DNA from: an uncultured Methanosarcinales archaeon
GTDB taxonomy: Archaea; Nanobdellota; Nanobdellia; Woesearchaeales; GW2011-AR9
Length of the DNA: 64,000 nt
NCBI GenBank assembly: GCA_964344285.1
Contig: CAYFMM010000003.1
Coordinates: 67,072 to 131,071, forward strand
Direction of reading: 5' to 3'
Below, piece after piece: positions 3,103 through 37,205 of the stretch. The position numbers and the translations under genes were made by a program. Every line of letters begins with the position of its first letter. Positions within the stretch are counted from its first letter, which is position 1. Under the pieces are notes generated by a model. That model saw only the letters and a list, made by a program, of their open reading frames with translations. It was not told the origin of the DNA and ran no database searches.

Positions 3103-3882
3103 TTAATATTTTTTAAAATCCAAAAGAGGCCCATATTTGTGTTCTAATTGTTGTTTTCCTTTCTGTACAATTTCTGCGTTTGCAGTGTAAGATGCAGGAT
3201 GGCGGTTGTAAATGTAAAGAGGTTTTGGCACATGAATCCCAGGGAATTCTTGCTGTAGACGAAAGAGCAGATCATATTCTGGAAAAATAAAGTTTTTGTC
3301 CCAAAATCCTTTCTCAAGAAGGATTGATTTTGTGAATAAAATCCCACAAGCAAGAGTGTTAAGAATATTTGATGTGGAGACAATTTTTTGTGATTTATTT
3401 CGTAAATCAACTTCAATATAATCTGCATAGGCAAACCCAGCAGTTGGATTTTTTTGTAATACCTGATAAAGGTCTTGTAGAGTAGAAGCAGTAAATTCAT
3501 CATCACCATCTAAGAAGATAACATATTTACCTCGAGCTAAAGACAACCCAATATGGCCCGATTGAATAGCTCCTTGGTTTTCCTGATTAATAATCGTAAG
3601 AGATTGGTTGTCTTTCAAATTTTTATTTTCAAAAGAAGATAAAAGAACCTTAGTTTGGTCAGTACTCCCATCATTGATAACAATTATTTCATAAGTTAAA
3701 TCTGAAAAAACAACCTGATTTAGTGTGCTTTGTACAGCTTTTACAATAAATGTTGCATTGTTGTAAGTTCTAATAATTATAGAAATAAGAGGAGATTTTG
3801 AGTTATTGTTTATGTTTTCTTTTGCCGTAGATTGCACGTTTATTGTAGATTGCACTTGGATTACCTTTGAACCATCTCCCAT
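3103..3882 (-). CDS. family 2 glycosyltransferase
   Basis: GT2 signatures ISIIIRTYNN, VINDGSTD, and the DxD motif FLDGDDEF. Confidence 0.7.
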   Translation of the reverse strand: MGDGSKVIQVQSTINVQSTAKENINNNSKSPLISIIIRTYNNATFIVKAVQSTLNQVVFSDLTYEIIVINDGSTDQTKVLLSSFENKNLKDNQSLTIINQENQGAIQSGHIGLSLARGKYVIFLDGDDEFTASTLQDLYQVLQKNPTAGFAYADYIEVDLRNKSQKIVSTSNILNTLACGILFTKSILLEKGFWDKNFIFPEYDLLFRLQQEFPGIHVPKPLYIYNRHPASYTANAEIVQKGKQQLEHKYGPLLDFKKY

Positions 3883-4952
3883 GTTAAAGGCGTTCCTTTT
3901 TCAAGATGTTGTGTTGCTTGTTTGCCAATAATTTCTTCATAATATTTAGGCTCTAAGCCTACTGAAGGTCGTACTACGCGAATATTTTTATGTGTAAAGA
4001 CTTCTCCCTCTTTAATTGGTTCTGCTACAAATATTGAACGGCGATATTTTGTATTTTTTTGCTCTTTTTCACTTTGTGGTCCAAAGCGTACAGTTCCAGA
4101 TATTTTCTCTGCACGACGGATTGCTTGAACCATTGTAGTGAATTCTTGAGGTCCAACTGAAAAATCAGCGTCAAAACTGTTACTTTTTTCATCTGCTACG
4201 ATATGTTTTTCAACTACACTAGCGCCCATTAAAACTGCTTGTAAAGGAATTTCTATACCTCCATTATTGTCAGAAAATCCAGTTAAAACACCATAACGCT
4301 GTTTCATGTGAAGCATCGTTACAAGGTTAGAATCTTCTAATTTAGGTTCTCTTGCATATGCAGTTACACAATGTAACAAGATAATTGGACCAGAGTTATT
4401 CTCTTTAAGTGTTTGTACAGCTAAATCTACCTCATCTTGAGTTGCAAAACCTACTGAAATGATTACTGGTTTTCCAGTCTGAGCAACTTTTTTAATTAGA
4501 GGAATATGTGTTGCCTCATAAGAAGCTATTTTGTATAATGGAACATCTAATGTTTCAAGAAAATCTACAGCAGTTTCATCAAACGGTGTAGAAAAAAGGA
4601 CCAAACCTTTTTGATGTGCATATTCTTGTAATTCTTTGTGCCATTCCCACGGAGTGTATGCTTCTTGATACAAAGAATGAAGTGTTTTTTTATGCCAAAA
4701 ATCTGGGTTTTCTGTGTTGTTAATAATAAAGTGTTCATTATCACAGTTTAAAGTAATTGTGTCTGCTGTATAGGTTTGTAGTTTAATTGCATCTGCCCCT
4801 GCATCTGCTGCTACGTCAATTATTTTTTTTGCTTTTGCAAAGTCTTGTTCATGATTTGCTGACATCTCTGCAATAATGAAAGTCGGAGAGCCTTCACCAA
4901 TAGTTCTTGAGCCTTTGGGAGTTTGTATTGTAAATTGAGTTGTATGTTCCAT
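3861..4952 (-). CDS. nonulosonic acid synthase (NeuB/PseI family; pseudaminic or legionaminic acid synthase)
   Basis: NeuB-like N-terminal TIM-barrel region (IIAEMSANHEQDF) and a C-terminal SAF/antifreeze-like domain (GEVFTHKNIRVVRP). Confidence 0.8.
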   Translation of the reverse strand: MEHTTQFTIQTPKGSRTIGEGSPTFIIAEMSANHEQDFAKAKKIIDVAADAGADAIKLQTYTADTITLNCDNEHFIINNTENPDFWHKKTLHSLYQEAYTPWEWHKELQEYAHQKGLVLFSTPFDETAVDFLETLDVPLYKIASYEATHIPLIKKVAQTGKPVIISVGFATQDEVDLAVQTLKENNSGPIILLHCVTAYAREPKLEDSNLVTMLHMKQRYGVLTGFSDNNGGIEIPLQAVLMGASVVEKHIVADEKSNSFDADFSVGPQEFTTMVQAIRRAEKISGTVRFGPQSEKEQKNTKYRRSIFVAEPIKEGEVFTHKNIRVVRPSVGLEPKYYEEIIGKQATQHLEKGTPLTWEMVQR

Positions 4953-5003
4953 TTGATATCTTTTTTAATTATGTTTTTTTAATTTAATAAACCTCATTTG
5001 ATT

Positions 5004-7076
5004 TTATCTTCTCGCAAAAATAGACCTAAATTTTTCCCCTCGAAGCAGGCTTGTTACTGAGTTTTGCTCGATTGCTATTGCAACCTTATCAAGTGCTTTA
5101 TCTGCAGCTACAATAAAAGCATACACGTCTTGTTCAGTATGGGCTAAGCTAAAATTATTTACCCCAAGACTAAGGATTCCATGTTCAATTAAGGTTTGTT
5201 GGTACACTGAGAGTAAGTCTTCTGGTTCTAAGTTTTTGATTTTGTTAAATGTAATGCCACAGTGAGGTGATAACCCATAATAATTAATATGTTGTTGAAG
5301 ATTTTTACGTTCAATTAATTTTTGCATCTCTAAGAGCCAAAGGTCTCCTAAGTGTAGAATATGCTTAAATGACTCTGGGCGTTCTAAGATTTCAATTGTT
5401 TTAAGTGCTGCTACAAGAGGGAGAGTTTCTCCTCCAAATGTTGTTGAAATAAATGCACCATCATCAATGAGCTCCATAATTTCCTTTTTACCAACTACTG
5501 CTGATAATGAAAAACCGTTTGCCATACCTTTACCAAATGCCGCAAGATCAGGAGTTACACCATAATGACCTTGAGCTCCAGCAAGCCCCATCCTAAAGCC
5601 GGATACTACTTCATCAAAGATAAGAACTGCACCATGTTGGTGTGTAAGTTGTTTAACTTTTTCAAGAAAATCATCCTCAGGTCCTGTTCCTTGACAAGGT
5701 TCTAAAATAACGGCTGCAACATTTCCTGGATTATCATCAAATATTTTTTTTAGAGATTGTATATCGTTATATGTAAACTTTTTAGTTAATTCTTTTACCG
5801 CATTGGGCACTCCTAAGTTATTAGTTGTTGTTCCAATATACCAATCATGATAGCCATGATAGCCTGAACAAGCAATGATGTCTTTTTTAGTATGTGCCCT
5901 AGCTAGACGGATAGCAGCAGTTGTAGCATCACTTCCATTTTTAACAAATTTTACCATCTCAGCTGCAGGAATAATTTGTGTAAGTTTTTGAGCTAATTCC
6001 ACCTCTAGAGTTGTAGGCTGTGAGAATGTTACCCCTTTATGTAATTGTTCAATTACTGCTTGATTAATTTCTTGATTATTGTATCCAATTGTAACTGGAC
6101 CTAAACCAAGAATAAAATCAATGTATTTATTGCCATCAACATCCCAAACACAAGCTCCGTGTCCTTTTTCTAAGAAAGCAGGTGCTGCTCCTTCACAGAA
6201 ATATTTGTAACTCTTGCTATATGTTTGTGAAGCACTAGGGATTAATTTTTTTGCTCGCTTTAACCATTGTGTTGAAGTTGTAAATGTTTGTATTAAGTGA
6301 GTAGGTTTTTGTGCAAGAGGTTCTTGTACCTGGGATTCTTGTACAAGAGATTTTTCATAGCCTTCATTTCTTTTAAAATTTTCATTCGTTGGAAGAAGGG
6401 AAGAATTTTTGATTGCATCGTCAATTTGTTGAAAAGTTGGATTGTTGCCAAGAGTTTGTATTATTTTTCGAATAAATTCTAAGTCTTCTGCTTGATCTAC
6501 AGTAATTCTAAGATTTGAATAATTTTGTGGAGAGGTAAGGTTAGCCTTTGAAAAGAATTGATTTTTCCAAATATAGGGAGTTACGTGTTCTCGCTCAGAG
6601 GGCAAAGTTGCTTCGTTCCATGCCTTTGTAAGTGTCTTCATGGTAAATACTTCTACATCCATTCCATCAGGGAATGTAGGGGGATGAACGTTTGAAGTAT
6701 AATCGACTCCTTGCTCTTTATGATGTAATATTACTTGATCTATGATTTCAGGATTGATTAAAGGACAGTCTCCAGTGATTCGTACAATAAGGTCTTGTTC
6801 TTTTGCTTGGACAGTTTGTGCTGCTTGGTAATAACGATCCAAAACGTCATTTTCACTCCCTGTAAACGTAAAAACCCCTAACTCTTTTGCTTTTTGCACT
6901 AAAGGCAAATCTTTATCTTGTGTAGTTGTTGCAAGGATTATTTTATCAACTTGTGTTGCTTGTTGAACTCTTTTTATAACATGTTGAAGTAAAGGTTTTT
7001 TAGCAATCTCAAGAAGCATCTTTCCAGGAAGCCTAGATGAACCCATCCGAGCTTGAATTATTGTTATTACTGTCAT
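5004..7076 (-). CDS. bifunctional acylneuraminate-type cytidylyltransferase / class III (HemL-like) aminotransferase fusion
   Basis: N-terminus MTVITIIQARMGSSRLPGKMLL matches the CMP-nonulosonate cytidylyltransferase (SpsF/PseF/NeuA) family. The C-terminal ~430 aa match PLP-dependent aminotransferase class III (glutamate-1-semialdehyde aminomutase-like). Confidence 0.7.
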   Translation of the reverse strand: MTVITIIQARMGSSRLPGKMLLEIAKKPLLQHVIKRVQQATQVDKIILATTTQDKDLPLVQKAKELGVFTFTGSENDVLDRYYQAAQTVQAKEQDLIVRITGDCPLINPEIIDQVILHHKEQGVDYTSNVHPPTFPDGMDVEVFTMKTLTKAWNEATLPSEREHVTPYIWKNQFFSKANLTSPQNYSNLRITVDQAEDLEFIRKIIQTLGNNPTFQQIDDAIKNSSLLPTNENFKRNEGYEKSLVQESQVQEPLAQKPTHLIQTFTTSTQWLKRAKKLIPSASQTYSKSYKYFCEGAAPAFLEKGHGACVWDVDGNKYIDFILGLGPVTIGYNNQEINQAVIEQLHKGVTFSQPTTLEVELAQKLTQIIPAAEMVKFVKNGSDATTAAIRLARAHTKKDIIACSGYHGYHDWYIGTTTNNLGVPNAVKELTKKFTYNDIQSLKKIFDDNPGNVAAVILEPCQGTGPEDDFLEKVKQLTHQHGAVLIFDEVVSGFRMGLAGAQGHYGVTPDLAAFGKGMANGFSLSAVVGKKEIMELIDDGAFISTTFGGETLPLVAALKTIEILERPESFKHILHLGDLWLLEMQKLIERKNLQQHINYYGLSPHCGITFNKIKNLEPEDLLSVYQQTLIEHGILSLGVNNFSLAHTEQDVYAFIVAADKALDKVAIAIEQNSVTSLLRGEKFRSIFARR

Positions 7077-7177
7077 TTGTAGCTTTTTTGCTAGATTTCA
7101 CCTTTATTAGTTTTGTGATTAAATGGTCGTGTACATAAATGGTCATGTACATAATAGACCTTAAGATACTCTTTATA

Positions 7178-8029
7178 TCAACATGTCTTCCAGTTACTAG
7201 GAATAATAATTTTTTCTGAGTCTTCTTTAAGTGATTGAAGTTGTGCAAATTGCTCTTGAGTTAGTGAAATGTTGGTGGCTGCAATGTTCTCACAGAGATT
7301 TTCAATGGAGTCAACTCCTAAGACAAGGCTGTCAATTTCTTGGTAATGAGATACAAATGCAATACAAAGGCCTGCTACTGTTAGTCCACTATCTTTTGCT
7401 AGGGAATGAATAGTATTGACCTTAGGTTTTATGGGTAAAAAGAATTCTGATAAAGAACTAGGAGGTTTAAAGAAAAGGCCTTGAAGGAAAACGGATCTAA
7501 CATGGACCTCCACACCTTTTTGTTTTAAGCGAGAGAGATATGGTTGGAAACGTTGATCAAAAATATTAAACGGTATTTGAAGAATATCAAAATCAAGATT
7601 GTGTTCAAAAATCCATTCTAATTCTTTTGGGGAGTAAAGAGAAAAGCCAATTTTTTGTACTTTTTGTTGTTTTTTTAGTTGTTGCATTTCTTCCCATAAA
7701 GAAGGATCATTTTTAATTTCATCAAAGTGATGGAATAAGCAGGCGTAAATGGATTCTCTTTGTAAGCGTTGAAGGGAATTGGTAAAAGCTTGTTGAAGAT
7801 TCCAGATATCATCTTTTCCTAATTTGGTAACAATTTTAAAATCTTTAGAGGCAAATTTTCCTAAAAGAGCTTCACTATCCCCATACGCTGATGCTGTATC
7901 TAGTAATGTAATTCCGTTTTGTGCAGCAGTAATAAGAATTTCTTTAACTTCATGCTCTGGGATTTTTCCTCTTGTGTTATTAATCCCATAATCAAGTCCA
8001 AATTGAACTGTTCCAAGTGCGAGTTTCAT
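7178..8029 (-). CDS. aldo/keto reductase family oxidoreductase
   Basis: AKR N-terminal signature MKLALGTVQFGLDYG...LLDTASAYGDSE. Confidence 0.7.
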   Translation of the reverse strand: MKLALGTVQFGLDYGINNTRGKIPEHEVKEILITAAQNGITLLDTASAYGDSEALLGKFASKDFKIVTKLGKDDIWNLQQAFTNSLQRLQRESIYACLFHHFDEIKNDPSLWEEMQQLKKQQKVQKIGFSLYSPKELEWIFEHNLDFDILQIPFNIFDQRFQPYLSRLKQKGVEVHVRSVFLQGLFFKPPSSLSEFFLPIKPKVNTIHSLAKDSGLTVAGLCIAFVSHYQEIDSLVLGVDSIENLCENIAATNISLTQEQFAQLQSLKEDSEKIIIPSNWKTC

Positions 8030-8118
8030 CTTTTATTTTGTTTCACTTTTTATTTTATTAATTGATTAGTCAATTGATTAATCAGTTAGTTAGTGTTAAG
8101 TTAGTTAGTTACGTGCTA

Positions 8119-9267
8119 TTAATTTTGAGTTTTTTGTTGTTTGAAAAATTCCTTGACAGTGGTAATTACAAAATCTTGCTCTGATTCTTGCAATAAAGGA
8201 TAGATTGGTAGGCTAATAATTGTGTGATATAATTTTTCAGCTTGAGGACATAGACCTTTAGGGTAACCTTGTTTTTGATAGAATGGATGTAGATATACTG
8301 GAAGGTAGTGTACCTGGCAACGAATATTTTTATCAGCTAAATAAGTGAATAATTTTTTCCTCATGTCCTCACTAGAAGTTTTAATGACAAAAAGGTGGTA
8401 TGAATTTTTTGTATTACTTGGCTCAGCAAAGTAATTTATTTCAGGCATGTTTTCAAACGCCTCTTGGTAACGCTTTGCAATTTCTCTTCTTTTCTTCACA
8501 AAGGGATCTATTTTTTTGAGTTGATTTAATCCTAAGGCACTTTGGATATCCGTTAATCTATAATTAAAACCTAGTTCGTGCATCTCTTGATGCCATGGTC
8601 CTTCATCAGAGCTTTCTAATACAGTTGGATCTTTAGTTATACCATGGGAACGTAAGCGAAGTAATTTATGATATAATTCGTGATTATTTGTTGTAATCAT
8701 TCCACCTTCTCCAGTAGTGATGTGTTTAACTGGATGAAAGCTAAAGACCGTCATATCTGAGAACTGACAAGAACCAACCTTATGTCCACCATAGATTCCT
8801 CCTAGTGCATGGCAAGCATCTTCTATAACTACTAAGTTATGCTTTTGTGCTATTTCAGATATCTTCTCCATATTTGCACAAAGGCCAGTGTAATGGACAG
8901 GGATTAAAATCTTTGTCTGAGAAGTGATCTTTGATTCTATTTTTGATTCATCAATATTTCCAAATTCATTCACATCAACAAATATAGGTTTTGCCCCACA
9001 ATAAAAGGCACAATTTGCTGACGCTGCAAAAGTCATTGGAGTCGTAATTAATTCATCACCTTCTCCTAAACCTGCTGCAAGGCAAGACAAGTGCAAAGCT
9101 GCCGTTCCGTTTGAGACTGCAACTGCATATTTTGCTCCAACATATTCAGCAAATGCTTGCTCAAATTTTTGCACTGTAGGTCCAGTTGTGAGAAAATCGC
9201 TTTTAAGAGATTCAACTACTTGGTTAATGTCTTTTTCATCAATAGATTGTTTGCCGTAGGGGATCAT
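8119..9267 (-). CDS. DegT/DnrJ/EryC1/StrS family sugar aminotransferase (PseC-like)
   Basis: PLP sugar aminotransferase fold (AVSNGTAALHL; catalytic Lys region FSFHPVKHITTGEGG). Adjacent to the PseB-like dehydratase. Confidence 0.8.
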   Translation of the reverse strand: MIPYGKQSIDEKDINQVVESLKSDFLTTGPTVQKFEQAFAEYVGAKYAVAVSNGTAALHLSCLAAGLGEGDELITTPMTFAASANCAFYCGAKPIFVDVNEFGNIDESKIESKITSQTKILIPVHYTGLCANMEKISEIAQKHNLVVIEDACHALGGIYGGHKVGSCQFSDMTVFSFHPVKHITTGEGGMITTNNHELYHKLLRLRSHGITKDPTVLESSDEGPWHQEMHELGFNYRLTDIQSALGLNQLKKIDPFVKKRREIAKRYQEAFENMPEINYFAEPSNTKNSYHLFVIKTSSEDMRKKLFTYLADKNIRCQVHYLPVYLHPFYQKQGYPKGLCPQAEKLYHTIISLPIYPLLQESEQDFVITTVKEFFKQQKTQN

Positions 9268-9333
9268 TTGAAATTTATTTGAAATTTATTTGAAAGTCAT
9301 TGTAAAGTCTAACAAGGTTAAATTACAAAGCGA
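9268..9333. repeat. short tandem direct repeat (ATTTGAAATTT unit, about 2.5 copies) in the intergenic spacer
   Basis: The sequence ttgaaatttatttgaaatttatttgaaagtc lies between the PseC-like stop and the PseB-like start. Confidence 0.4.
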
Positions 9334-10350
9334 TCATAGTAAATTAAGTTCTGTAAACAAAGTTCTTATTTTCTCTGGAGCAATTACCTCACTATAAGAA
9401 CCATATTCTTGCATCTCTTGCTCAGAAAGTTTTCTACCTTCAAGAACATAACGAGGAGTTGATACTGACTGTTGATATCGTTGAATAGGAGAGGTTATCA
9501 CCAGAAGATTTTGGAATGCATAAGTCCTAGGAATTTCTGAGTTATTAATCATTAATTCATGAATTTTCTCACCTGGCCGAATACCAATAACTTCAACTTC
9601 AGTACTAGCATTATGTTTTTGTTTTAGTACTTCAATTAAGTCTGTTACTTTAAATGCAGGTAAGCGAGGAACAAAGATTTCTCCCCCAACACAGTATTGA
9701 AGTGCATCCATTACTAACTGAACTGCTTGTTGAGGACTAATAATAAAACGAGTCATTCGGTCATCTGTCAAAGGGATTTTTTGTCCCATTTTAATTTTAC
9801 CTTCAAAAAAAGGAATTACAGACCCTGTACTTTCTAAAACATTACCATAACGAACACAAGTAAAGATGGTTTTTTTACTTCCTTTATTAAAATTTGATTC
9901 TGTAAAAATCCTTTCACTTACAAATTTACAAGCACCATATGTGTTTACTGGAGAACAAGCTTTATCGGTTGAGACAAAAATTGCTTTTTCAACATCATTT
10001 TCTAAGCATGCATTTACAACATTTAAAGTTCCAAGAATGTTTGTTTGAATAGACTCAGAAACATTATACTCTAAGATGTCTAAACGTTTGAGAGCTGCTG
10101 CGTGAATAACTATATCAACGCCTTCGATTGCTCTTTTTAGTCTTGGATAATCACGTACATCTCCGATAAGATGACGTAATTTTGAAGAATAACTAAATTT
10201 TTCTTGTACTTTGTGGTGTTTTACTTCATCACGACAGAATAAGCGAATGCTTTGAGGGTCATACTTTAAAATTTCCTCTACGAGTGCTTGGCCTAAAAAC
10301 CCTGTACCGCCAGTGATTAAGACTGTTTTTCCCTTGAAAATATGTTCCAT
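9334..10350 (-). CDS. UDP-N-acetylglucosamine 4,6-dehydratase (PseB/FlaA1/CapD-like SDR)
   Basis: Rossmann motif KTVLITGGTGFLGQ. Length and layout are typical of inverting 4,6-dehydratases. Confidence 0.8.
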   Translation of the reverse strand: MEHIFKGKTVLITGGTGFLGQALVEEILKYDPQSIRLFCRDEVKHHKVQEKFSYSSKLRHLIGDVRDYPRLKRAIEGVDIVIHAAALKRLDILEYNVSESIQTNILGTLNVVNACLENDVEKAIFVSTDKACSPVNTYGACKFVSERIFTESNFNKGSKKTIFTCVRYGNVLESTGSVIPFFEGKIKMGQKIPLTDDRMTRFIISPQQAVQLVMDALQYCVGGEIFVPRLPAFKVTDLIEVLKQKHNASTEVEVIGIRPGEKIHELMINNSEIPRTYAFQNLLVITSPIQRYQQSVSTPRYVLEGRKLSEQEMQEYGSYSEVIAPEKIRTLFTELNLL

Positions 10351-10647: not shown

Positions 10648-11802
10648 ATGAAAATACTTTTAATCAACGCAACTTTTACAAAGAATCTTAAGGAAGCAGC
10701 AAACATTACTACCTTAAATTATGCCAAAGAGCTGATTAGTAGAGGTCATGAAGTAAAAATTGTTGCAGAAAGAAGACAAGGCCTCCCTTCTGAAGAGGTA
10801 TTTCAAGGAGTGCCAGTACATAGGCATAAGAAGGTGAGTACTAAAGCATTTTTTACAAAATTTCTGGGTTTACAGTTAACTGTTAAAGAGATTAAGAAAA
10901 AAGGGTTTAATGCAGAAGTGGTGCACGGTTTTAGTGCATCTACGCTAATGGCATTAAATACAATACTAGCTCATTTTTGGTTTCCAAAAAGCAAGGTATT
11001 TCACACAATTAAATCAGAGTCCAAGGCCACTATTGATAAATATTTTTCATTTGTACTTAATTTTTTAGATGTTGTTACTGTCTCAACTGCAAAGCAAGTA
11101 AAAAGACTTAGGGGCCGTGGAGTAAGAAAAGATAAAATCAAAGTCATCAAGTCACATATTGATACCAAAAAATTTGTTGCAAAAGATAAAGAAACACTAA
11201 AGAAGAGTTATGGTTATGAAGGAAGAAAAATTGTACTTTATTATGGAGCTATGAGAGAAGATAAAGGGACTATGGACTTATTGAAATCAAGCCCATTAGT
11301 AATAAAAGATGAACCTTTAGTGTTGTATATTTTTATTGGGAGATGGAAAGCAGATGACGATGAATTTCATCGGTATGTAAAAGAGCAAAAACTGGAAGAG
11401 AATGTGTTAATTATTACAGAAGACGTAGTGATTGAAGATTATGTGGCAATGGCAGACATAGGTATTTTCCCTTATCAAACACTAACAAGAACAGAAAGCA
11501 ATCCTTCTTGTGTGTTAGAATGCCTTGCTTGTAAGACCCCTGTAATTACGAGTTTCCTTCCAGAATTAAAAGAGATTTTGACAAATGGAAAGAATTGTGT
11601 TATGGTCAGACCACAAGATATTAAGGAATTAGCAAAAGCCACCCTAGATTTGTTGAATGATACACAAAAACAAGAGAGATTAAGAGAAGAAGGAAAAATT
11701 ATTGCAAATGAATTTTCCATTACAAAAAGAACCGATGAATTCTTAGAGATGTACTTAAAAGTAAGAGGCAAAGTAAATAGAAATAAGAACAACTCTGCGT
11801 AA
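10648..11802 (+). CDS. family 4 (GT-B) glycosyltransferase
   Basis: GT4 C-terminal donor-binding region (ESNPSCVLECLACKTPVITS). Confidence 0.65.
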   Translation: MKILLINATFTKNLKEAANITTLNYAKELISRGHEVKIVAERRQGLPSEEVFQGVPVHRHKKVSTKAFFTKFLGLQLTVKEIKKKGFNAEVVHGFSASTLMALNTILAHFWFPKSKVFHTIKSESKATIDKYFSFVLNFLDVVTVSTAKQVKRLRGRGVRKDKIKVIKSHIDTKKFVAKDKETLKKSYGYEGRKIVLYYGAMREDKGTMDLLKSSPLVIKDEPLVLYIFIGRWKADDDEFHRYVKEQKLEENVLIITEDVVIEDYVAMADIGIFPYQTLTRTESNPSCVLECLACKTPVITSFLPELKEILTNGKNCVMVRPQDIKELAKATLDLLNDTQKQERLREEGKIIANEFSITKRTDEFLEMYLKVRGKVNRNKNNSA

Positions 11803-11834: not shown

Positions 11835-12518
11835 ATGAATCAGAAAATTACATGGAAAGAGATTAAAGAGTCTAGTAGTAAACATAAAGAAATCGCAATG
11901 CGTATTACCGATTATTTATCTCGACCTTTGACTTATATTATGGTGCGTTGTACTAAGATTACACCCAACCAAGTTTCTATTTTATCGTTTTTATTTGTAC
12001 TCGCAAGTGCATATTTCTTTTTAAAAGGAGGATATACTAATGTCTTAATTGGAGCTATCTTAGCATTTGTGTACAACCTTTTGGATATGGTTGATGGCAT
12101 GATTGCACGTCTACGAGGAATGAGTTCTGTTTTTGGACAGTGGTTGGATGGCGTATTAGGATTTTTGTCTTTTCCCATTACAATTATTGCAATTTCAATT
12201 GGATTGAAAAATTATGTTGCGCTTATTTTAGGAATGATAGCAATTGTAAGCTATCCACTACAGTTTTTATTTGTACATTATTATAAGTCAGATATTCAAA
12301 AGAACAATCAAAAGATGTATATTCCTGGTGCAGGGAAGTTAGAATGGGTTAGATATGCTTATGGAGCAAGTTTCTTTAACTTCTTCTTGCTATTTACTGC
12401 AATTATTGGTAAGCCTGTTTATACTCTTGTATTTTGGGCAACTTTAGGTAATTTGTATTGGGTAGGAATCTTGTATTCACAGTACAGAGCTCTTCGTTTA
12501 GCTGCTCAGAAAAAATAA
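11835..12518 (+). CDS. CDP-alcohol phosphatidyltransferase family membrane protein
   Basis: Motif DMVDGMIARLRG...G...D in a polytopic membrane protein. Confidence 0.55.
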   Translation: MNQKITWKEIKESSSKHKEIAMRITDYLSRPLTYIMVRCTKITPNQVSILSFLFVLASAYFFLKGGYTNVLIGAILAFVYNLLDMVDGMIARLRGMSSVFGQWLDGVLGFLSFPITIIAISIGLKNYVALILGMIAIVSYPLQFLFVHYYKSDIQKNNQKMYIPGAGKLEWVRYAYGASFFNFFLLFTAIIGKPVYTLVFWATLGNLYWVGILYSQYRALRLAAQKK

Positions 12519-12539: not shown

Positions 12540-13631
12540 ATGAAAGTTTATTGTAATATTGATACTGATGCAAGAAAATTTGAAGGAAGAACACAACTTG
12601 CAACAAAAGTTACAGCATTCTTAAAAGAGAAAGGATTTGAGTTTACGCAAAATCCCAAAGAAGCAGACTTGTTTCATTTTCATAGTAGCGGAGTTTTTGA
12701 GTCTTATAGAGCTTACCAATTAAAAAAAAAATATGGTAAACCATGTATTTATTCGTTATATTCTAATGTAGTAGCTTCTGCAATTATGCACCCAATTAAT
12801 TTTTGGATTCAAAAGAAATATTTTCAAAAGACAGCGACTAAATTTCTTCCAAGTTACACTGCAGCAATTCCTTTATGGATGCGATCTTTTTTTCTCAATA
12901 AGTTAGATGTTGTAGTAGTTCCCTCAAAGTTTTTACAGCAGAAGTTAGGAAAAAATGCAAGGATAATTCCTTTTGGAGTTGACATTGCAAAGTTTACAAT
13001 TCTTGAAAAAAAAAATGAAGCAGAGAATGCTTTAACTCAAGACAAAGGAGAACAAGAAGAGCAAGAAGAAGTCGCAGGAAGGAAAACAAAAAAAATAAAG
13101 GTAGCTTATTTTGGACATGCTGGAGTGTTTAAAGGATTAAATGATTTTGTAAATGCATCATTTCATTTTGATAAAGACATTGAGACCCATATTTTTATGA
13201 CACAGCGTTTTGATAAAGTTGATAAGTATATTGCAAGGAACTCAAAGATTATTATTCACGGATTTGTAGAAAACATTACCAAGGCGTATAATGATATGGA
13301 CATCGTCTTATTACCTTATAGAACTGAAATAGGAACTGTTGCAAATCCATTAGTATTAATAGAAGCAATGGCGTGTGGAAAAGCAATAGTTACCACTGAT
13401 TTTGATTTCGTAAAAGAAGTAGTAGGTAACTCTGCTACAATAAGCCCAAAATTTTCACCAAAAAAATTAGCTAAAGCAGTAAACACACTTGCAAAAGATT
13501 CTGGATTGCGAGAGGAAATGGGAAAAAAAGCACGTAAGATTGTTGAAGAGAAGTATTCACGAGAAAAGATGTTACAGGGTTATTTGAATCTATATCAAGA
13601 ATTTGCTAAAGAGAAATTAAAAGTTGAATAA
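12540..13631 (+). CDS. family 4 (GT-B) glycosyltransferase
   Basis: GT4 C-terminal motif LIEAMACGKAIVTTD. Confidence 0.65.
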   Translation: MKVYCNIDTDARKFEGRTQLATKVTAFLKEKGFEFTQNPKEADLFHFHSSGVFESYRAYQLKKKYGKPCIYSLYSNVVASAIMHPINFWIQKKYFQKTATKFLPSYTAAIPLWMRSFFLNKLDVVVVPSKFLQQKLGKNARIIPFGVDIAKFTILEKKNEAENALTQDKGEQEEQEEVAGRKTKKIKVAYFGHAGVFKGLNDFVNASFHFDKDIETHIFMTQRFDKVDKYIARNSKIIIHGFVENITKAYNDMDIVLLPYRTEIGTVANPLVLIEAMACGKAIVTTDFDFVKEVVGNSATISPKFSPKKLAKAVNTLAKDSGLREEMGKKARKIVEEKYSREKMLQGYLNLYQEFAKEKLKVE

Positions 13632-13684: not shown

Positions 13685-15055
13685 ATGGAACAAAGAAAAG
13701 CTATGATTGTAGGATTAGTATTGTTTATGTGTGGTGCAGTTATTTTTTATTTTAAAGGAATTGTGTGGGCGGCAGGATACATTCTTTCATTATTCATATT
13801 AGAAGCGATTACATATCTTACCTTAGTGCGTTTGCGTAAAAGATCTCCTTTGTTTATTATGCCCAAAGATAAAGCTCCAGAGCTTTCAAAAAAGGGCTTA
13901 CAAAAATTCTTCAAGCAAGGATATGATTCAAAGTTAGGTTGGATTCGTAAGCCGAATACAAACAAAGAAGAAAAGAGTAGTTTTGGAACCACAGCATATT
14001 TGATTAACCAGAAAGGTGCAAGAAGCAACTTAGAGCATGAAACATTACCCCTAAAAATATCTTGTTATGGCGATTCTTTTACTTTTTGCAGACAGGTTAA
14101 TGATAATCAGACATGGGAATGGTTCCTCTCAGAGCTAACACAAAGCAATGTTGCAAATTTTGGAGTAGGAAATTATGGTATTGACCAAGCACTTTTACGT
14201 TTGAAAAGAGAATATGAAAAGAATCCCACTAAAATTGTTGTGATGGGAGTAGTTCCTTCAACTATTGTTCGAATTTTATCTGTGTGGAAACATTATCATG
14301 AATACGGAAACACATTTGGATTTAAACCTTTTTTTAGAATAGAGAAAGGAAAATTAAAATACTACGCAAATAGAATAGATAATGAAGATAAATTCTTAAC
14401 ATACAAAAAAGAAATACCTTTTTTCAAAAAGCACGATTATTTTTACAAAAATAAGTTTTCTAAAGAATTATTTGAGTTCCCTTTTTTTGTATCTATGCTA
14501 AGTAACCCTATCCGTAATATTCCTTTAATTACTTCATTTTTGCTGTTTAAGAATAATGGAAATAAAAATGGAAATAAGAATGAAAGCAAGGAAGAAAAAG
14601 AGGTGGTTTATGGAAAAGGAAAAAAGCAGAGCGATAAAAAAAGAGATGGAAAAGATGTAATGATACAAAAATTGCAAAAGATTAAAGACAGATTTTTGCA
14701 TCCTGTAAAAGTTTCATTGTTTAGCAAAGACAAACCAGTAGAATTGTTAAAAGCGTTGACTCAAGAATTTTTTTCTTATGCTCAAGAGAAATCATTTACC
14801 CCCATCCTGTTATGGATACCACAAAAAGACGATATAGAATATATTAAGCGTAGAGGTGTGTATTATGAAGATTACATTAAAGAGTTTTCTAAAGAATTTA
14901 CTGTTGTTGATATGACTAAAACATTAGTTAATTCAAATAATGTAGAAAACCTTTTTACAGAAGACTCTAGTGACGGGGGCCATTTAAGTGAAGAAGGTAA
15001 CAAAGTTGTTGCAAATGAGTTGTTTAAGGCAATATCAGCGCTTAAGACGCCGTAG
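13685..15055 (+). CDS. membrane-anchored SGNH/GDSL hydrolase-like protein
   Basis: N-terminal TM helices followed by a GDSL block I (CYGDSFTF). Carries a Lys/Asn-rich insert (KNNGNKNGNKNESKEEKE). Confidence 0.4.
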   Translation: MEQRKAMIVGLVLFMCGAVIFYFKGIVWAAGYILSLFILEAITYLTLVRLRKRSPLFIMPKDKAPELSKKGLQKFFKQGYDSKLGWIRKPNTNKEEKSSFGTTAYLINQKGARSNLEHETLPLKISCYGDSFTFCRQVNDNQTWEWFLSELTQSNVANFGVGNYGIDQALLRLKREYEKNPTKIVVMGVVPSTIVRILSVWKHYHEYGNTFGFKPFFRIEKGKLKYYANRIDNEDKFLTYKKEIPFFKKHDYFYKNKFSKELFEFPFFVSMLSNPIRNIPLITSFLLFKNNGNKNGNKNESKEEKEVVYGKGKKQSDKKRDGKDVMIQKLQKIKDRFLHPVKVSLFSKDKPVELLKALTQEFFSYAQEKSFTPILLWIPQKDDIEYIKRRGVYYEDYIKEFSKEFTVVDMTKTLVNSNNVENLFTEDSSDGGHLSEEGNKVVANELFKAISALKTP

Positions 15056-16519
15056 TTTTTTTTGTATTTCAAACAGGTTGAATGCACCAAAAAGATATGC
15101 AAGTAAAAAATAAAACAAAGTTGCAACAAATCCTGCAATAAAGAATTCCATCCACATATTTAGAGAAATTGAGTTTTGTATAAAATACGCTACTGCAAGA
15201 AAACTTATTCCAGGAAAAACTATTTTTAGCCATTGTTTGATTGGAAATTTCATTTTTAAGATATGGGTAATGTGTCGAGTGGAATCAAGGAGGATGTACA
15301 AATAGCTAGCAGAAGTTGCAAAGGCTGCTCCTTCTATTCCGTAAAAAGGGATAAGAGCAAAATTTAAGCCTACATTGATTAAAACTGCAACAAAAACCAT
15401 CTTTGATACTAATTGCGGCTTTCCCATCCCTAAAAGGATATTGTTATTCATCATTGCGACGATATAAAATAATGTGCCGACCAAAACAATTTGAAAGGTT
15501 ATATCTCCAGATGCATAGGCAGCTCCAAAAAACACGGTGATTAAAAATCTTGCAAAGACAAAAGTAATTCCCAAAAGAGGGATGATTAAGATAAATATGT
15601 AACGGTGAATTAAGCCCACTCCTTCTGCAAGCCTTTGTGTATCATTCTTCGACCACAATTCAGAAGACATAGGAAAAGCAATAGAGCTTACTGCTCTGCC
15701 AAGGAAAAAAAACATTAAGGCTGAAGGGAGAACTGCATTATAAATACCCACATCACTAAGAGAAACAAAGTAGGTTAAAATAATTGTATCTGCATAACCA
15801 ATAATTCTCCCGCCTACTACTGTTGCAAAAGAATGTACGCCAAAAGAAAGGAGTTCTTTAGAACGTAACATAAAGTGAGTCATTTTATGTTTAAATGGAT
15901 TAAATAGTCTAAATGCAAAGGGAAGGTATACAAGAAACATCAAAAAGGCTGAAAAGAAGTAAGCATAGGCTGGTGCAATTTGAAGAGGAGTAATCTTAAC
16001 AAAGAGAAGAATACCAATAAAAACAAAAAGGTTTTTTGCAAGTTCCATTGAAGAATAAAGAAGCATTTTCTGATAGCCTTGAAATATGCCTTTGAGAATT
16101 CTAAAGAAGATACTAAAGAAAACATAGAAAATTAAAATACGTAAAATAGGAATAGAACCAGGGTCTGCAAAGTAGTGAACGGAGAGGAATTTTGAGAAGA
16201 CTATAAAGAGAATTGCAAGGATACAAGAACCCAAAATCTCAAGTGAAAGAACAGACACAATAATTGTCTTAATGGAATTATAATCTTTTTTGGATTGATA
16301 ATGAGACATGTATTTTACAAGAGCTTCTTGTAGCCCTAAATCACGCAAGAATAAGAAGAAAAGAACGAATGTAAGGACAGAATAAAATAATCCAAATTCA
16401 GAAGTGTCAAGAGTCCTAGCTAAGACTAAACGAACTAAATAACCTACAAGAGCTGCAAACATACCCATAATAAACGAAGCTCCTGCTCCCTTGACTGCTT
16501 TTTTAAGATATTGTGCCAC
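15035..16519 (-). CDS. polysaccharide biosynthesis protein / oligosaccharide flippase (Wzx, MOP superfamily)
   Basis: 494 aa with about 12-14 predicted TM helices. The layout is typical of Wzx-like flippases in glycan clusters. Confidence 0.6.
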   Translation of the reverse strand: MAQYLKKAVKGAGASFIMGMFAALVGYLVRLVLARTLDTSEFGLFYSVLTFVLFFLFLRDLGLQEALVKYMSHYQSKKDYNSIKTIIVSVLSLEILGSCILAILFIVFSKFLSVHYFADPGSIPILRILIFYVFFSIFFRILKGIFQGYQKMLLYSSMELAKNLFVFIGILLFVKITPLQIAPAYAYFFSAFLMFLVYLPFAFRLFNPFKHKMTHFMLRSKELLSFGVHSFATVVGGRIIGYADTIILTYFVSLSDVGIYNAVLPSALMFFFLGRAVSSIAFPMSSELWSKNDTQRLAEGVGLIHRYIFILIIPLLGITFVFARFLITVFFGAAYASGDITFQIVLVGTLFYIVAMMNNNILLGMGKPQLVSKMVFVAVLINVGLNFALIPFYGIEGAAFATSASYLYILLDSTRHITHILKMKFPIKQWLKIVFPGISFLAVAYFIQNSISLNMWMEFFIAGFVATLFYFLLAYLFGAFNLFEIQKKLRRLKR

Positions 16520-36467: not shown

Positions 36468-37205
36468 ATGAAAGTTGGATTTACATGTAGACAAACTATA
36501 ATGGAAGGTCGTGGAAACATGACCGAAGTAGAAGGAGAATATATGCAATATTATCCCCGTTTTGGTATTTACCTTGTACTTCTTACACCAGAGATGTTAG
36601 ATATTGAAGGCAATCCTGATTTTTTAGAAAAACAGATTAAAGAATTAGGAATTGAAGGGTTTATCATTGGAGGAGGAAATGGAGTTGATCCAAAGCTATG
36701 GGGAGAAGAAAAAGAATACGAAAATAGATGGTCGGATCCTCGACAAAGATTAAATGAATGGGTATTAGACTACGCAACAAAAAACAAAATGCCGGTATTA
36801 GGAGTTTGTACAGGACTACATGCAATGAATGTTTTTTATGAAGGAAAATTAGTGCAAAACATTCCTGGACAGACAGAGAGCACAATAATTCATTCTCCTG
36901 GTAATGGAAACCCACATACGCCGCACGAAATTACGTTGTCAGGGAAGGCTGTAGAATATTTTGGGTCTGATGTAGTACAAGTCAATTCATATCATAGCCA
37001 AGGAATTGTAGGAGATATGGTAGGTAAAGGGTTGCAACCCTGGGCAAGTTGTGCGGACGACACTGTAGAAGCTGTATACCATACAGAATTACCTATGGCA
37101 GGAATTACCTGGCACCCAGAGCGTGATTATGCGTCTCCAGACAAAGTATTTAATGAGAAATTAGTAAAAGCCTTTGTGAACAGAGAATTATTTTGGAAGA
37201 AGTAA
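36468..37205 (+). CDS. class I glutamine amidotransferase-like / peptidase C26 (gamma-glutamyl hydrolase, PuuD-like)
   Basis: Nucleophile elbow LGVCTGLH and a C-terminal His region (GITWHPE). Confidence 0.55.
   Translation: MKVGFTCRQTIMEGRGNMTEVEGEYMQYYPRFGIYLVLLTPEMLDIEGNPDFLEKQIKELGIEGFIIGGGNGVDPKLWGEEKEYENRWSDPRQRLNEWVLDYATKNKMPVLGVCTGLHAMNVFYEGKLVQNIPGQTESTIIHSPGNGNPHTPHEITLSGKAVEYFGSDVVQVNSYHSQGIVGDMVGKGLQPWASCADDTVEAVYHTELPMAGITWHPERDYASPDKVFNEKLVKAFVNRELFWKK

What the first reader, a model, noticed from the sequence alone, without database searches (positions are those of the whole stretch)
11835..12518. Two CDP-alcohol phosphotransferase-family membrane proteins sit in the glycan cluster rather than with lipid synthesis genes
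Seen in sequence: ORFs 11835..12518 and 43643..44350 both carry the D-G-x2-A-R...G...D motif. Both lie between glycosyltransferases and the sulfation cassette. Neither is next to any archaeal lipid biosynthesis gene. Inference: together with the TagD-like and LicC-like cytidylyltransferases, they may transfer phospho-alcohol head groups onto a lipid-linked glycan.
Basis: inference. Interest (0 to 1): 0.5.

Follow-up and report, generated by a model that had tools for sequence, protein, structure and literature searches.

The report
Atypical CDP-alcohol phosphotransferases in glycan island
Two membrane enzymes in a DPANN archaeon's surface-sugar gene island belong to the CDP-alcohol phosphotransferase family but lack its supposedly invariant catalytic aspartate, and their conserved gene neighbours suggest they attach small phosphate-linked groups to surface glycans or glycolipids instead of making ordinary membrane lipids.

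Summary
Both ORFs are real and pass Pfam's threshold for PF01066. His is conserved in about 50 homologue clusters, including bacterial relatives. Gly is conserved in about 28 representative families. The other seven signature residues and the cytosine-binding motif are kept.

The window comes from a Woesearchaeota-like DPANN archaeon. Neither protein approaches the cut-off of any lipid head-group synthase model. Their models most resemble AF2299 and IPCT-DIPPS, which use soluble donors.

Relatives are repeatedly fused or adjacent to enzymes that make CMP-activated small molecules: a cytidylyltransferase fusion, an IPCT-MIPS fusion, a TagD-like gene, and a Fom1-like hydroxyethylphosphonate operon. 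They also sit next to GT4/GT2 glycosyltransferases, Wzx flippases and sulfation genes. No lipid-synthesis genes were seen.

Best reading (about 0.5): they transfer phospho-head-groups from soluble CDP-X donors onto lipid-linked glycan or glycolipid intermediates. The donor, the acceptor and the mechanism without D4 remain unproven. I rate this a new variant of a known kind.

The parts
11835..12518 (+). ORF A: 227-aa six-TM CDP-alcohol phosphotransferase-family protein of the Gly type. Signature D84-x2-D87-G-x2-A-R ... G101-x3-D105-x3-G109, so D4 is Gly (codon 12159-12161). Cytosine-binding motif P44-N-Q-V-S.
43643..44350 (-). ORF B: 235-aa six-TM CDP-alcohol phosphotransferase-family protein of the His type. 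Signature D81-x2-D84-G-x2-A-R ... G98-x3-D102-x3-H106, so D4 is His (codon 44033-44035). Cytosine-binding motif P41-N-Q-I-T.
10648..11802 (+). GT4 glycosyltransferase immediately upstream of A. This adjacency is conserved in other genomes.
12540..13631 (+). GT4 glycosyltransferase immediately downstream of A. Orthologue at 61% identity in L001; a GT4 also follows the fused relative in L036.
13685..15055 (+). Conserved unknown 456-aa protein (weak GDSL/SGNH-like hit) that follows the A module in the window, L001 and L035.
15035..16519 (-). Wzx-type oligosaccharide flippase (Polysacc_synt). Flippases are adjacent to many A and B homologues.
3861..10350 (-). Nonulosonic-acid cassette (NeuB, CTP_transf_3+Aminotran_3 fusion, AKR, DegT, PseB-like), divergent from the GT4-A-GT4 operon. 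The same arrangement occurs in L035.
29742..33302 (+). 1186-aa fusion: Fom1/ECT-like cytidylyltransferase domain, PRK05849-like region, swivel-His domain and PPDK_N ATP-grasp. Candidate maker of a CMP-activated donor. Recurs near B homologues.
35579..36382 (+). NTP_transf_3 ('LicC-like') nucleotidylyltransferase. Its orthologues form an operon with the kinase fusion and the C26 gene, and it is fused to the kinase in L004.
36468..37205 (+). Peptidase_C26/GATase-like hydrolase. Its best family match is gamma-glutamyl-CDP-amidate hydrolase (Cj1417), below the cut-off.
38457..43671 (+). Sulfation cassette: sulfotransferase, IMPase/CysQ-like, CysD, CysN+APS kinase, and a stand-alone canonical APS kinase whose 3' end overlaps B.
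44380..45528 (+). DUF354 (GT-B-like) gene, divergent from B. Recurs near B homologues in L003, L005 and L008.

Best explanation
ORF A and ORF B are distant paralogues (26% identity) of the CDP-alcohol phosphotransferase superfamily in a Woesearchaeota-like DPANN archaeon. They represent two conserved clades in which the fourth signature aspartate is replaced, by Gly in A and by His in B, while the CDP/metal-binding part of the site is kept. Most likely each binds a soluble CMP-activated small molecule made by cytidylyltransferases encoded in the same island. Candidates seen in different relatives are CDP-polyol or CDP-amino-alcohol, CMP-phosphonate, and possibly cytidine diphosphoramidate. On the cytoplasmic face of the membrane, each would transfer the phospho-group, releasing CMP, onto a lipid-linked oligosaccharide or glycolipid intermediate built by the adjacent glycosyltransferases, before Wzx flips it outward. 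Shown here: family membership, fold, the D4 substitutions and their conservation, synteny and fusions. Strongly inferred: a soluble CDP-X donor. Weakly inferred: a glycan or glycolipid acceptor. Unknown: the exact donor for A and B in this genome, and how catalysis proceeds without D4.
For: Family and fold: PF01066 above threshold. AF2 models have pLDDT 95 and 91. The best structural matches are AF2299, then IPCT-DIPPS, ahead of PIP, PGP and PS synthases. PMC4634129 describes AF2299 and DIPPS as having a small hydrophilic pocket suited to soluble donors. CDP binding retained: D1, D2, G, A, R and D3 are invariant and G2 is at least 90% conserved in an unfiltered alignment of 59 homologues, and the P-N-x-x-S/T motif is present. 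Not lipid synthases: AIP synthase, PIP synthase, PssA, PgsA and archaetidylserine-synthase models all score far below cut-off (59 against 180 at best). The residue after D4, which binds inositol phosphate in MtPgsA1 (R94; PMC6506517), is Phe in A and Tyr in B. Donor coupling: P0082 (Gly type, E 9e-72) is an NTP_transf_3 + CDP-AP fusion. L040 has an NTase overlapping a Gly-type gene, and L039 has a Fom1-like CTP_transf+PEP_mutase, a TPP decarboxylase and an Fe-ADH upstream of a Gly-type gene. His-type relatives sit next to an NTP_transferase+MIPS fusion (L010, L020), a stand-alone TagD-like gene 19 bp upstream (L013), an NTase+SDR fusion (L021) and an NTase+PLP-enzyme fusion (bacterial L028/29). 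Glycan context: A-type genes are adjacent to a GT4 in 4 of 4 genomes with context (window, L001, L035, L036). Of 21 DPANN loci with B homologues, 16 contain GTs, 12 an NTP_transf_3-like gene, 10 sulfation genes and 7 a Wzx. In L004 the genes GT2, kinase fusion, C26, PAPS-synthase fusion and B homologue are contiguous on one strand. No lipid-synthesis Pfam family appears in the window or in the Pfam-labelled loci L001, L002, L035, L036, L039, L041 and L042.
Against: No biochemical data exist for any member of these clades. D4 is reported as essential in canonical enzymes (the D-to-N mutant is nearly dead; PMC4634129), so activity cannot be assumed. In the window neither A nor B is directly adjacent to a cytidylyltransferase; the nearest candidates are 5-23 kb away. 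Gene neighbourhood cannot distinguish a glycan acceptor from a lipid acceptor that is then glycosylated. The best, though sub-threshold, sequence models are inositol-phosphate-using lipid synthases. The D4 position is filled by chemically unrelated residues (His, Gly, Leu, Ile, Ser), and no single mechanism explains that.
Confidence: 0.5

Rival explanations
1. They are lipid head-group enzymes. One version is AIP-synthase-like: CDP-archaeol plus a polyol phosphate gives a lipid anchor that the flanking GT4s then glycosylate, as in the mycobacterial pgsA1-pimA (PIM) logic. The other is Kennedy-type: a soluble CDP-X is transferred onto a scavenged core lipid such as archaeol, letting a lipid-auxotrophic DPANN cell remodel host-derived lipids.
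For: The top NCBIfam hits, though sub-threshold, are archaetidylinositol-phosphate and PIP synthases. The GT4 - CDP-AP - GT4 order resembles the PI/PIM operon (established knowledge). MIPS plus IPCT genes lie near A and B homologues. Eukaryotic CPT/EPT enzymes of this family transfer from soluble CDP-alcohols, and from CMP-aminoethylphosphonate, to diacylglycerol (established knowledge). DPANN Cluster 2 genomes commonly lack complete lipid synthesis and take lipids from hosts (PMC7414124). A relative is fused to an LPG_synthase_TM domain (P0161).
Against: Scores are 3-4 fold below the equivalog cut-offs. D4 and the following ino-P-binding Arg are absent. The structural neighbours are the soluble-donor enzymes. 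No CarS, GGGPS or DGGGPS-type gene was seen in the window or in the Pfam-labelled loci. The strong, repeated linkage is to Wzx flippases, GT2/GT4, sulfotransferases and sugar-nucleotide genes.
Confidence: 0.25
2. They are priming enzymes. The acceptor is the phosphate of dolichyl phosphate, so that CDP-X + Dol-P gives X-P-P-Dol + CMP. This is phosphoglycosyl-transferase-like chemistry in a CDP-AP fold, which would explain why a general base at D4 is dispensable.
For: D4 is replaced by residues that cannot act as a base (Gly, Leu, Ile) while the CDP/metal site is kept. No PF00953 or PF02397 priming transferase was found among the window ORFs of at least 120 aa that were scanned against Pfam, despite a glycan island of about 50 kb with a Wzx flippase. 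A is translationally linked to GT4s in four genomes.
Against: This is inference only. Archaeal priming enzymes are often encoded elsewhere in the genome. No precedent exists for a CDP-AP with a phosphate acceptor. His in the B clade is strictly conserved, which suggests a catalytic role.
Confidence: 0.1
3. They synthesise a soluble compatible solute, like di-myo-inositol phosphate: CDP-inositol or CDP-glycerol plus a polyol phosphate, followed by IMPase dephosphorylation.
For: Some B homologues sit next to an IPCT-MIPS fusion, and IMPase-family genes occur in 8 of 21 loci. DIPPS and AF2299 are the closest structures. The DIPPS model gives a domain-level hit.
Against: The window has no MIPS. 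The IMPase gene sits inside the PAPS cassette, where a CysQ role is expected. The scores of 41 and 29 bits compare with a cut-off of 580. The context is dominated by GTs, flippases and sulfotransferases. D4 and the ino-P-binding Arg are missing. No sampling temperature or habitat data were obtained here, and DIP is known from (hyper)thermophiles (established knowledge).
Confidence: 0.05
4. They are catalytically dead or accessory subunits, for example heterodimer partners or scaffolds, that have lost the catalytic aspartate.
For: D4-to-N nearly abolishes activity in MtPIPS (PMC4634129). CDP-APs are dimers in the solved structures. A second or third divergent paralogue lies within a few kb in 6 of 21 loci.
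Against: Seven of eight signature residues and the cytosine-binding motif are conserved over very deep divergence. The substitution is clade-specific and itself conserved: His in 50 of 59 aligned homologues, with extra invariant polar residues K145, R187, E189, E218 and R221. Fusion to an active-looking cytidylyltransferase makes sense only for an enzyme. In the window, A and B are 31 kb apart and no canonical D4 partner is present.
Confidence: 0.07

Closest known systems
AF2299 (Archaeoglobus fulgidus CDP-alcohol phosphotransferase; PDB 4o6m, 4o6n, 4q7c)
   Same: Best sequence match in the PDB for A (E 1.4e-13; the motif regions align as DgcDGeiARlkfmeskyGawlDgvlD and DmvDGmiARlrgmssvfGqwlDgvlG). 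Best structural match for both A and B (TM 0.69-0.73). Six-TM core. PMC4634129 describes a small hydrophilic donor pocket suited to soluble CDP-alcohols.
   Different: AF2299 has the canonical D4 and an N-terminal cytosolic domain, which A and B lack. Its physiological substrates are also unknown, so it offers no functional transfer.
IPCT-DIPPS (bifunctional CTP:inositol-1-phosphate cytidylyltransferase / CDP-inositol:inositol-1-phosphate transferase; PDB 4mnd)
   Same: Second-best structural match. The logic of a cytidylyltransferase feeding a CDP-AP with a soluble CDP-alcohol recurs in the Gly-type relative P0082 (NTP_transf_3 + CDP-AP fusion) and in His-type relatives next to IPCT-MIPS fusions.
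   Different: NF041135 scores 41 and 29 bits against a cut-off of 580. D4 is absent. A and B are stand-alone proteins in a glycan island without MIPS. The product is unlikely to be a free solute.
Archaetidylinositol-phosphate and phosphatidylinositol-phosphate synthases (NF040950, NF045883; MtPgsA1, RsPIPS)
   Same: Highest-scoring NCBIfam models and the same fold. The mycobacterial pgsA1-pimA operon parallels the GT4 - CDP-AP - GT4 order.
   Different: The scores are a third or less of the cut-offs. D4 (D93) and the ino-P-binding R94 are replaced. No evidence for CDP-archaeol supply was seen.
LicC/LicD phosphocholine and PntC phosphonate cell-surface tailoring pathways (bacteria)
   Same: The same chemical logic: a small head group is cytidylylated (by a LicC/PntC-type NTP_transf_3 or a Fom1-type CTP_transf_like domain) and then transferred to a glycan or lipid (PMC6697681). 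L039 places a Gly-type CDP-AP at the end of a hydroxyethylphosphonate-cytidylylation operon.
   Different: In those bacterial systems the proposed transferase is LicD-like and unrelated in fold. Here a CDP-AP-fold membrane enzyme occupies that position. The window itself has no PEP mutase.
Campylobacter jejuni O-methyl-phosphoramidate (MeOPN) pathway, Cj1415-Cj1418
   Same: The genes most often linked to B homologues form an operon of a PPDK-like swivel-His kinase, a C26 hydrolase and an NTP_transf_3. The hydrolase's top family in 8 of 8 proteins tested is gamma-glutamyl-CDP-amidate hydrolase. The kinase and the NTase are fused in L004. APS-kinase genes and methyltransferases are nearby.
   Different: All scores are below the equivalog cut-off (54-118 against 250). 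The domain order differs and an extra Fom1-like domain is present. The stand-alone APS kinase looks canonical. The C. jejuni transferases are not CDP-APs. No P-N chemistry is demonstrated.

Membership tests
CDP-alcohol phosphotransferase superfamily (Pfam PF01066) | Profile HMM score above the curated gathering threshold | tested here: met
   A 46.1 bits and B 31.8 bits against GA 22
CDP-alcohol phosphotransferase superfamily (Pfam PF01066) | Six-TM fold of solved CDP-APs | tested here: met
   AF2 models with pLDDT 95.1 and 91.3. The top Foldseek PDB hits, ahead of any other fold, are all CDP-APs, led by AF2299 at TM 0.69-0.73
CDP-alcohol phosphotransferase superfamily (Pfam PF01066) | Complete signature D1xxD2G1xxAR...G2xxxD3xxxD4 ('eight absolutely conserved residues', PMC4634129) | tested here: not met
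   Seven of eight are present. D4 is Gly109 in A and His106 in B, confirmed by alignment to AF2299 and conserved within each clade
CDP-alcohol phosphotransferase superfamily (Pfam PF01066) | P(D/N)xx(T/S) cytosine-binding motif at the start of TM1 (PMC4634129) | tested here: met
   A has P44-N-Q-V-S and B has P41-N-Q-I-T. N and Q are invariant or nearly so among homologues
CDP-alcohol phosphotransferase superfamily (Pfam PF01066) | CMP-releasing phospho-transfer activity | not testable with these tools
   Needs an enzyme assay
Archaetidylinositol-phosphate synthase (NCBIfam NF040950) and PIP synthase (NF045883) | Equivalog HMM score above cut-off | tested here: not met
   A 59.3 and B 41.3 against 180; A 41.9 and B 37.9 against 170
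Archaetidylinositol-phosphate synthase (NCBIfam NF040950) and PIP synthase (NF045883) | Arg immediately after D4 that binds the inositol-phosphate acceptor (R94 in MtPgsA1, PMC6506517) | tested here: not met
   Phe110 in A and Tyr107 in B
Archaetidylserine / phosphatidylserine synthase (TIGR00473, NF038086) and PGP synthase (TIGR00560) | Equivalog HMM score above cut-off | tested here: not met
   For A: 23.4 against 107, 14.5 against 200 and 15.5 against 109. For B: 12.9 against 107, with the other models not detected
IPCT-DIPPS (NF041135) | Equivalog score; fused or adjacent inositol-1-phosphate cytidylyltransferase; MIPS in the genome | tested here: not met
   41.3 and 29.2 bits against 580. 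The window has no fusion and no MIPS. Some relatives do have an NTase fusion or an IPCT-MIPS neighbour
MeOPN-type phosphoramidate pathway (applies to the neighbouring genes 29742-37205, considered as donor supply) | Cj1417-type gamma-glutamyl-CDP-amidate hydrolase (NF045546) above cut-off | tested here: not met
   53.7 bits in the window and 63-118 bits in orthologues against a cut-off of 250, although it is the top family in all 8 proteins tested
MeOPN-type phosphoramidate pathway (applies to the neighbouring genes 29742-37205, considered as donor supply) | Swivel-His/ATP-grasp kinase and NTP_transf_3 cytidylyltransferase acting in one pathway | tested here: inconclusive
   The domains are present, the genes form an operon, and they are fused in L004. 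Specificity for glutamine or phosphoglutamine cannot be read from sequence, and no named model for these two enzymes matched

The most novel reading that the evidence does not exclude
The Gly-type and His-type proteins, together with a third type that has D3-to-Glu and D4-to-Ile/Leu/Asn, form a previously unrecognised mechanistic class of CDP-AP-fold enzymes that work without the canonical fourth aspartate. They would be the missing membrane transferases that install unusual phosphorus groups on archaeal, and some bacterial, cell-surface glycoconjugates. The groups in question are phosphonates such as hydroxyethylphosphonate, phosphoramidate from cytidine diphosphoramidate, and polyol phosphates. 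Alternatively, they prime glycan assembly on dolichyl phosphate.
Probability: 0.15. Interest if true: 0.8.

Novelty: new variant of a known kind. Interest (0 to 1): 0.55.

Why it matters
The CDP-alcohol phosphotransferase signature is taught as eight invariant residues, with D4 as the catalytic base and second-metal ligand. Large, conserved clades that replace D4 yet keep everything else would force a rethink of the mechanism or reveal a new class of acceptor. These clades sit in cell-surface glycan islands of DPANN archaea, organisms that depend on contact with hosts and usually cannot make their own lipids. They are coupled to enzymes that make CMP-activated polyols, phosphonates and possibly phosphoramidate. 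They are therefore concrete candidates for the unknown transferases that decorate archaeal surfaces with phosphorus-containing groups. They also give a directly testable set of donor and acceptor combinations.

Tried and rejected
1. I tested whether the third PF01066 hit (58601-60076) is the genome's real lipid CDP-AP. Its motif is degenerate (LIDVLAR...FFHPFSDKL), the A/B clade profile does not detect it, and it is fused to DAGK_cat. I rejected it as a canonical enzyme.

2. I tested whether the stand-alone APS kinase next to B is a Cj1415-type CDP-amidate kinase. It scores 220 bits to plant APS kinase and looks canonical. There is no specific support.

3. I searched the PDB by sequence for the NTP_transf_3 and C26 proteins, looking for the C. 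jejuni enzymes. Only generic relatives appeared (LicC, sugar-1-P NTases, PuuD, Lin1909).

4. I tested whether 887-2560 is TagF-like. It has no PDB sequence hit. The only hints are a weak Epimerase_2 match and a weak Glyphos_transf label on its L036 counterpart.

5. The idea that His simply replaces Asp as the base is weakened, because other lineages carry Gly, Leu, Ile, Asn or Ser at that position.

6. The conservation table used sequences pre-selected by a motif regex, so its 100% values for D1-D3 are circular. The unfiltered alignments are the valid evidence.

7. Literature searches for CDP-APs acting on glycans, or for D4-less CDP-APs, found nothing. The library does not cover most subscription journals, so this is weak evidence of absence.

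8. The listing of cluster members gave no source names. PMC5938747 is not held.

9. Many TPA assemblies are labelled 'uncultured Methanosarcinales archaeon'. I treated these as generic labels, because named relatives of the same proteins and of the thermosome are Woesearchaeota or Nanoarchaeota.
Full report
OBSERVATION. Both exceed Pfam's gathering score for PF01066 CDP-OH_P_transf (46.1 and 31.8 bits against 22). The pattern DG..AR..G...D occurs exactly twice in the six-frame translation of the 64-kb window, at these two genes, and never in 200 shuffles. A and B are distant paralogues: 26% identity over the full length, E 5e-19.

Pfam and NCBIfam annotation of the large ORFs scanned confirms that about 50 kb of the window is a glycan island. 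It contains a nonulosonic-acid cassette, GT2, GT4 and GT-C-like transferases, a Wzx flippase, sugar-nucleotide enzymes, a PAPS cassette and two sulfotransferases. It contains no archaeal lipid-synthesis gene. A lies between two GT4 genes. B lies between a stand-alone APS kinase and a DUF354 GT-B-like gene.

The thermosome gene at 60692-62254 has its nearest named relatives (66-71% identity) only in Woesearchaeota, Nanoarchaeota and Nanoarchaeia. The window is therefore from a DPANN archaeon, a group in which incomplete lipid biosynthesis is common (PMC7414124).

The family signature is D1xxD2G1xxAR...G2xxxD3xxxD4, described as eight absolutely conserved residues. D1-D3 bind the metals. D4 is the presumed catalytic base and a ligand of the second metal, and a D4-to-N mutant of MtPIPS is almost inactive although it still binds substrate (PMC4634129, PMC6506517). 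A reads D-MV-DGMIAR-LRGMSSVF-G-QWL-D-GVL-G. B reads D-CT-DGIVAR-YKKIFSLN-G-IYL-D-YIG-H. The alignment to AF2299 (...GawlDgvlD against ...GqwlDgvlG) shows this is a true substitution and not a register shift.

The substitution is a clade property. In an unfiltered alignment of 59 homologues the D4 column is His in 50, Gly in 5 (the A clade), Asp in 3 outliers and Ser in 1. In the same alignment D1, D2, G1, A, R and D3 are invariant and G2 is at least 90% conserved. An exhaustive profile search with the A clade found 8990 relatives. The best ~28 families at 50% identity nearly all carry ...WLDGxxG, and canonical D4 families appear only below them. Bacterial relatives in Terriglobia and Acidiferrales also carry His. 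A third paralogue type, found within a few kb of B homologues in six loci, has D3-to-Glu and D4-to-Ile/Leu/Asn.

The cytosine-binding P-N-x-x-S/T motif is intact in A and B. The B clade has its own invariant charged residues in the C-terminal half (K145, R221 and others).

FOLD AND NEAREST RELATIVES. AlphaFold models are confident (pLDDT 95.1 for B and 91.3 for A). Both are closest to AF2299 (TM 0.69-0.73), then to IPCT-DIPPS, and only after those to PIP, PGP and PS synthases. PMC4634129 notes that AF2299 and DIPPS lack the lipid groove and have a small hydrophilic pocket consistent with soluble donors.

NCBIfam equivalog models for archaetidylinositol-phosphate synthase, PIP synthase, PssA, PgsA, archaetidylserine synthase and IPCT-DIPPS all score far below their cut-offs (best 59 against 180). 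The Arg after D4 that binds inositol phosphate in MtPgsA1 is Phe in A and Tyr in B.

COMPARATIVE CONTEXT, A (Gly) TYPE. Four genomes give usable context.
- Window: GT4 - A - GT4 - unknown 456 aa, then a convergent Wzx, with a divergent nonulosonic-acid cassette.
- L001 (GCA_964502785.1): GT4 - A homologue - GT4 - unknown 437 aa.
- L035: nonulosonic-acid cassette, then GT4 - homologue - unknown 438 aa with overlapping codons, then Wzx.
- L036: Aldedh - [NTP_transf_3 + CDP-AP(Gly) fusion, P0082] - GT4 with overlapping codons - thymidylate-kinase-like - Epimerase_2/Glyphos_transf-like - UGDH. The last pair matches window genes 63-2560.

Two further Gly-type genes follow CMP-activating enzymes. 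L040 has an overlapping NTP_transferase. L039 has a Fom1-like CTP_transf+PEP_mutase fusion, a TPP decarboxylase and an Fe-ADH, which together form a hydroxyethylphosphonate cytidylylation cassette.

COMPARATIVE CONTEXT, B (His) TYPE. A scan of one genome per species found 31 loci, of which 23 come from archaeal MAGs. I used 21 informative DPANN loci and BLAST against the window's proteins. Within 10 kb:
- 16 have glycosyltransferases.
- 12 have an NTP_transf_3-like gene.
- 10 have sulfation genes.
- 9 have the kinase fusion and/or the C26 gene.
- 8 have an IMPase/CysQ-like gene.
- 7 have a Wzx.
- 6 have a second divergent CDP-AP paralogue.

The immediate neighbours are telling. L010 and L020 have an NTP_transferase + myo-inositol-1-phosphate-synthase fusion, which would make CDP-inositol. 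L013 has a stand-alone TagD-like cytidylyltransferase 19 bp upstream. L021 has an NTase+SDR fusion. Bacterial L028/L029 have an NTase+PLP-enzyme fusion directly upstream.

In L004 the genes GT2, kinase fusion, C26, pyruvate-kinase/ATP-sulfurylase/APS-kinase fusion and B homologue (58% identity) are contiguous on one strand. In L041 the kinase fusion, C26 and NTase form an operon, and the B homologue is flanked by a second C26 gene and a Wzx, with methyltransferases nearby. In L042 the order is carbamoyltransferase, GDSL-like, B homologue, then Wzx. None of the Pfam-labelled loci shows lipid-synthesis families.

The 'TagD-like' element is the N-terminal domain of a 1186-aa fusion (29742-33302). 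Its best PDB match is the cytidylyltransferase domain of Fom1 (5x3d), followed by ethanolamine-phosphate cytidylyltransferase. The rest of the protein is a swivel-His domain plus a PPDK_N ATP-grasp, like PEP synthase and rifampicin phosphotransferase. The 'LicC-like' gene (35579-36382) is an NTP_transf_3 with LicC among its best PDB hits.

Together with the C26 hydrolase (36468-37205), these form a conserved trio. The hydrolase's top NCBIfam family, in the window and in seven proteins from other loci, is gamma-glutamyl-CDP-amidate hydrolase (Cj1417), scoring 54-118 bits against a cut-off of 250 and well ahead of the runner-up families. In L004 the NTase is fused to the kinase.

This resembles the C. 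jejuni O-methyl-phosphoramidate pathway of glutamine kinase, phosphoglutamine cytidylyltransferase and CDP-amidate hydrolase (PMC6429109). A similar gene set has been noted in Borg elements of archaea (bioRxiv 10.1101/2024.11.05.622173). It remains a lead. Cut-offs are not met, the stand-alone APS kinase is canonical, and no P-N chemistry can be read from sequence.

INTERPRETATION. The repeated fusion and adjacency of both D4-variant types with enzymes that make soluble CMP-activated small molecules strongly suggest a soluble CDP-X donor and not CDP-archaeol. So do the AF2299/DIPPS-like fold and the failure of every lipid-synthase model. The repeated embedding among GT4/GT2, Wzx, sulfotransferase and sugar-nucleotide genes suggests that the product belongs to a cell-surface glycoconjugate. 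Because CDP-AP active sites face the cytoplasm, the modification would occur on a lipid-linked intermediate before flipping.

The main rival (0.25) is a lipid or glycolipid role, either PI/PIM-like or Kennedy-type head-group attachment to scavenged core lipids. Synteny cannot exclude this. Smaller rivals are priming on dolichyl phosphate (0.1), which would rationalise the loss of a general base, DIP-like solute synthesis (0.05), and non-catalytic subunits (0.07).

How catalysis proceeds without D4 is unexplained. The position holds His, Gly or aliphatic residues in different lineages.

NOVELTY AND SCORE. Membership of the CDP-AP superfamily is clear by profile and fold, but one defining feature, the complete eight-residue signature, is tested and not met. 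I found no description of D4-less clades or of CDP-APs acting in glycan decoration in the searchable literature. That library does not cover most subscription journals. I classify this as a new variant of a known kind, with interest 0.55. The finding is solid and moderately surprising, it gives clear experiments, and the function is still inferred.

Noticed in passing
window 58601-60076 (-): 491-aa protein with a degenerate PgsA-like CDP-AP membrane domain (LIDVLAR...FFHPFSDKL; the DG and G2 are lost) fused to a DAG-kinase catalytic domain. This could be a lipid kinase anchored by a dead CDP-AP domain, which is of interest for lipid scavenging in DPANN.
   Followed up: partly
window 29742-33302, 35579-36382, 36468-37205; L003, L004, L006, L015, L021, L041: A conserved trio of a Fom1-like cytidylyltransferase + swivel-His/PPDK_N kinase fusion, a C26 hydrolase whose top family is gamma-glutamyl-CDP-amidate hydrolase, and an NTP_transf_3. 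In L004 the NTase is fused to the kinase. This looks like a MeOPN-type phosphoramidate pathway in DPANN archaea.
   Followed up: partly
L004 10781-11497, L013 8511-9251, L015 2746-3453, L019 9962-10708, L021 7-717, L024 13483-14253: A third CDP-AP paralogue type lies next to B homologues, with D3-to-Glu and D4-to-Ile/Leu/Asn (for example DGNLARMKEKFSLLGPYLEQLGI). Paired divergent paralogues might form heterodimers.
   Followed up: no
L039 2688-7708: Operon of a CTP_transf_like+PEP_mutase fusion (Fom1-like), a HIT protein, a TPP enzyme, an Fe-ADH and then a Gly-type CDP-AP. This is a probable hydroxyethylphosphonate activation and transfer cassette in an uncultured organism.
   Followed up: no
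window 1-50000: No PF00953 (AglH/WecA/MraY) or PF02397 (PglC) priming phosphoglycosyltransferase was detected among the ORFs of at least 120 aa that were scanned against Pfam in a glycan island that has a Wzx flippase.
   Followed up: partly
window 41214-43085 and 43066-43671; L004 7131-9932: The cluster has two APS-kinase copies, one fused to CysN and one stand-alone. In L004 a single 933-aa protein fuses a pyruvate-kinase barrel, ATP sulfurylase and APS kinase.
   Followed up: partly
window 63-911 and 887-2560; L036 5019-7822; L001 13903-15177: A thymidylate-kinase-like gene recurs beside A-type CDP-APs (L001, L036). In the window and in L036 it is followed by a large Epimerase_2-like protein, which carries a weak Glyphos_transf/TagF label in L036. 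The function is unknown and the protein has no PDB sequence match.
   Followed up: partly
window 5004-7076 (-); L035 972-3067: A CMP-nonulosonate-synthetase-like domain (CTP_transf_3) is fused to a class-III aminotransferase in the window. The two are separate adjacent genes in L035.
   Followed up: no
window 20579-21766; protein P0161: An LPG_synthase_TM-family membrane protein lies next to a GT2 in the window. A distant relative (P0161, 808 aa) fuses LPG_synthase_TM to a CDP-AP domain.
   Followed up: no
window 22545-25551: A hexapeptide acyltransferase, a 4'-phosphopantetheinyl transferase and an AMP-binding (adenylating) enzyme sit inside the glycan island, with no carrier protein recognised. 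This may be an acyl or aminoacyl decoration module.
   Followed up: no
window 44380-44481: The DUF354 ORF probably starts at Met35, because the Pfam match begins at residue 36. That would leave about 130 bp instead of 29 bp for the divergent promoters shared with ORF B.
   Followed up: no
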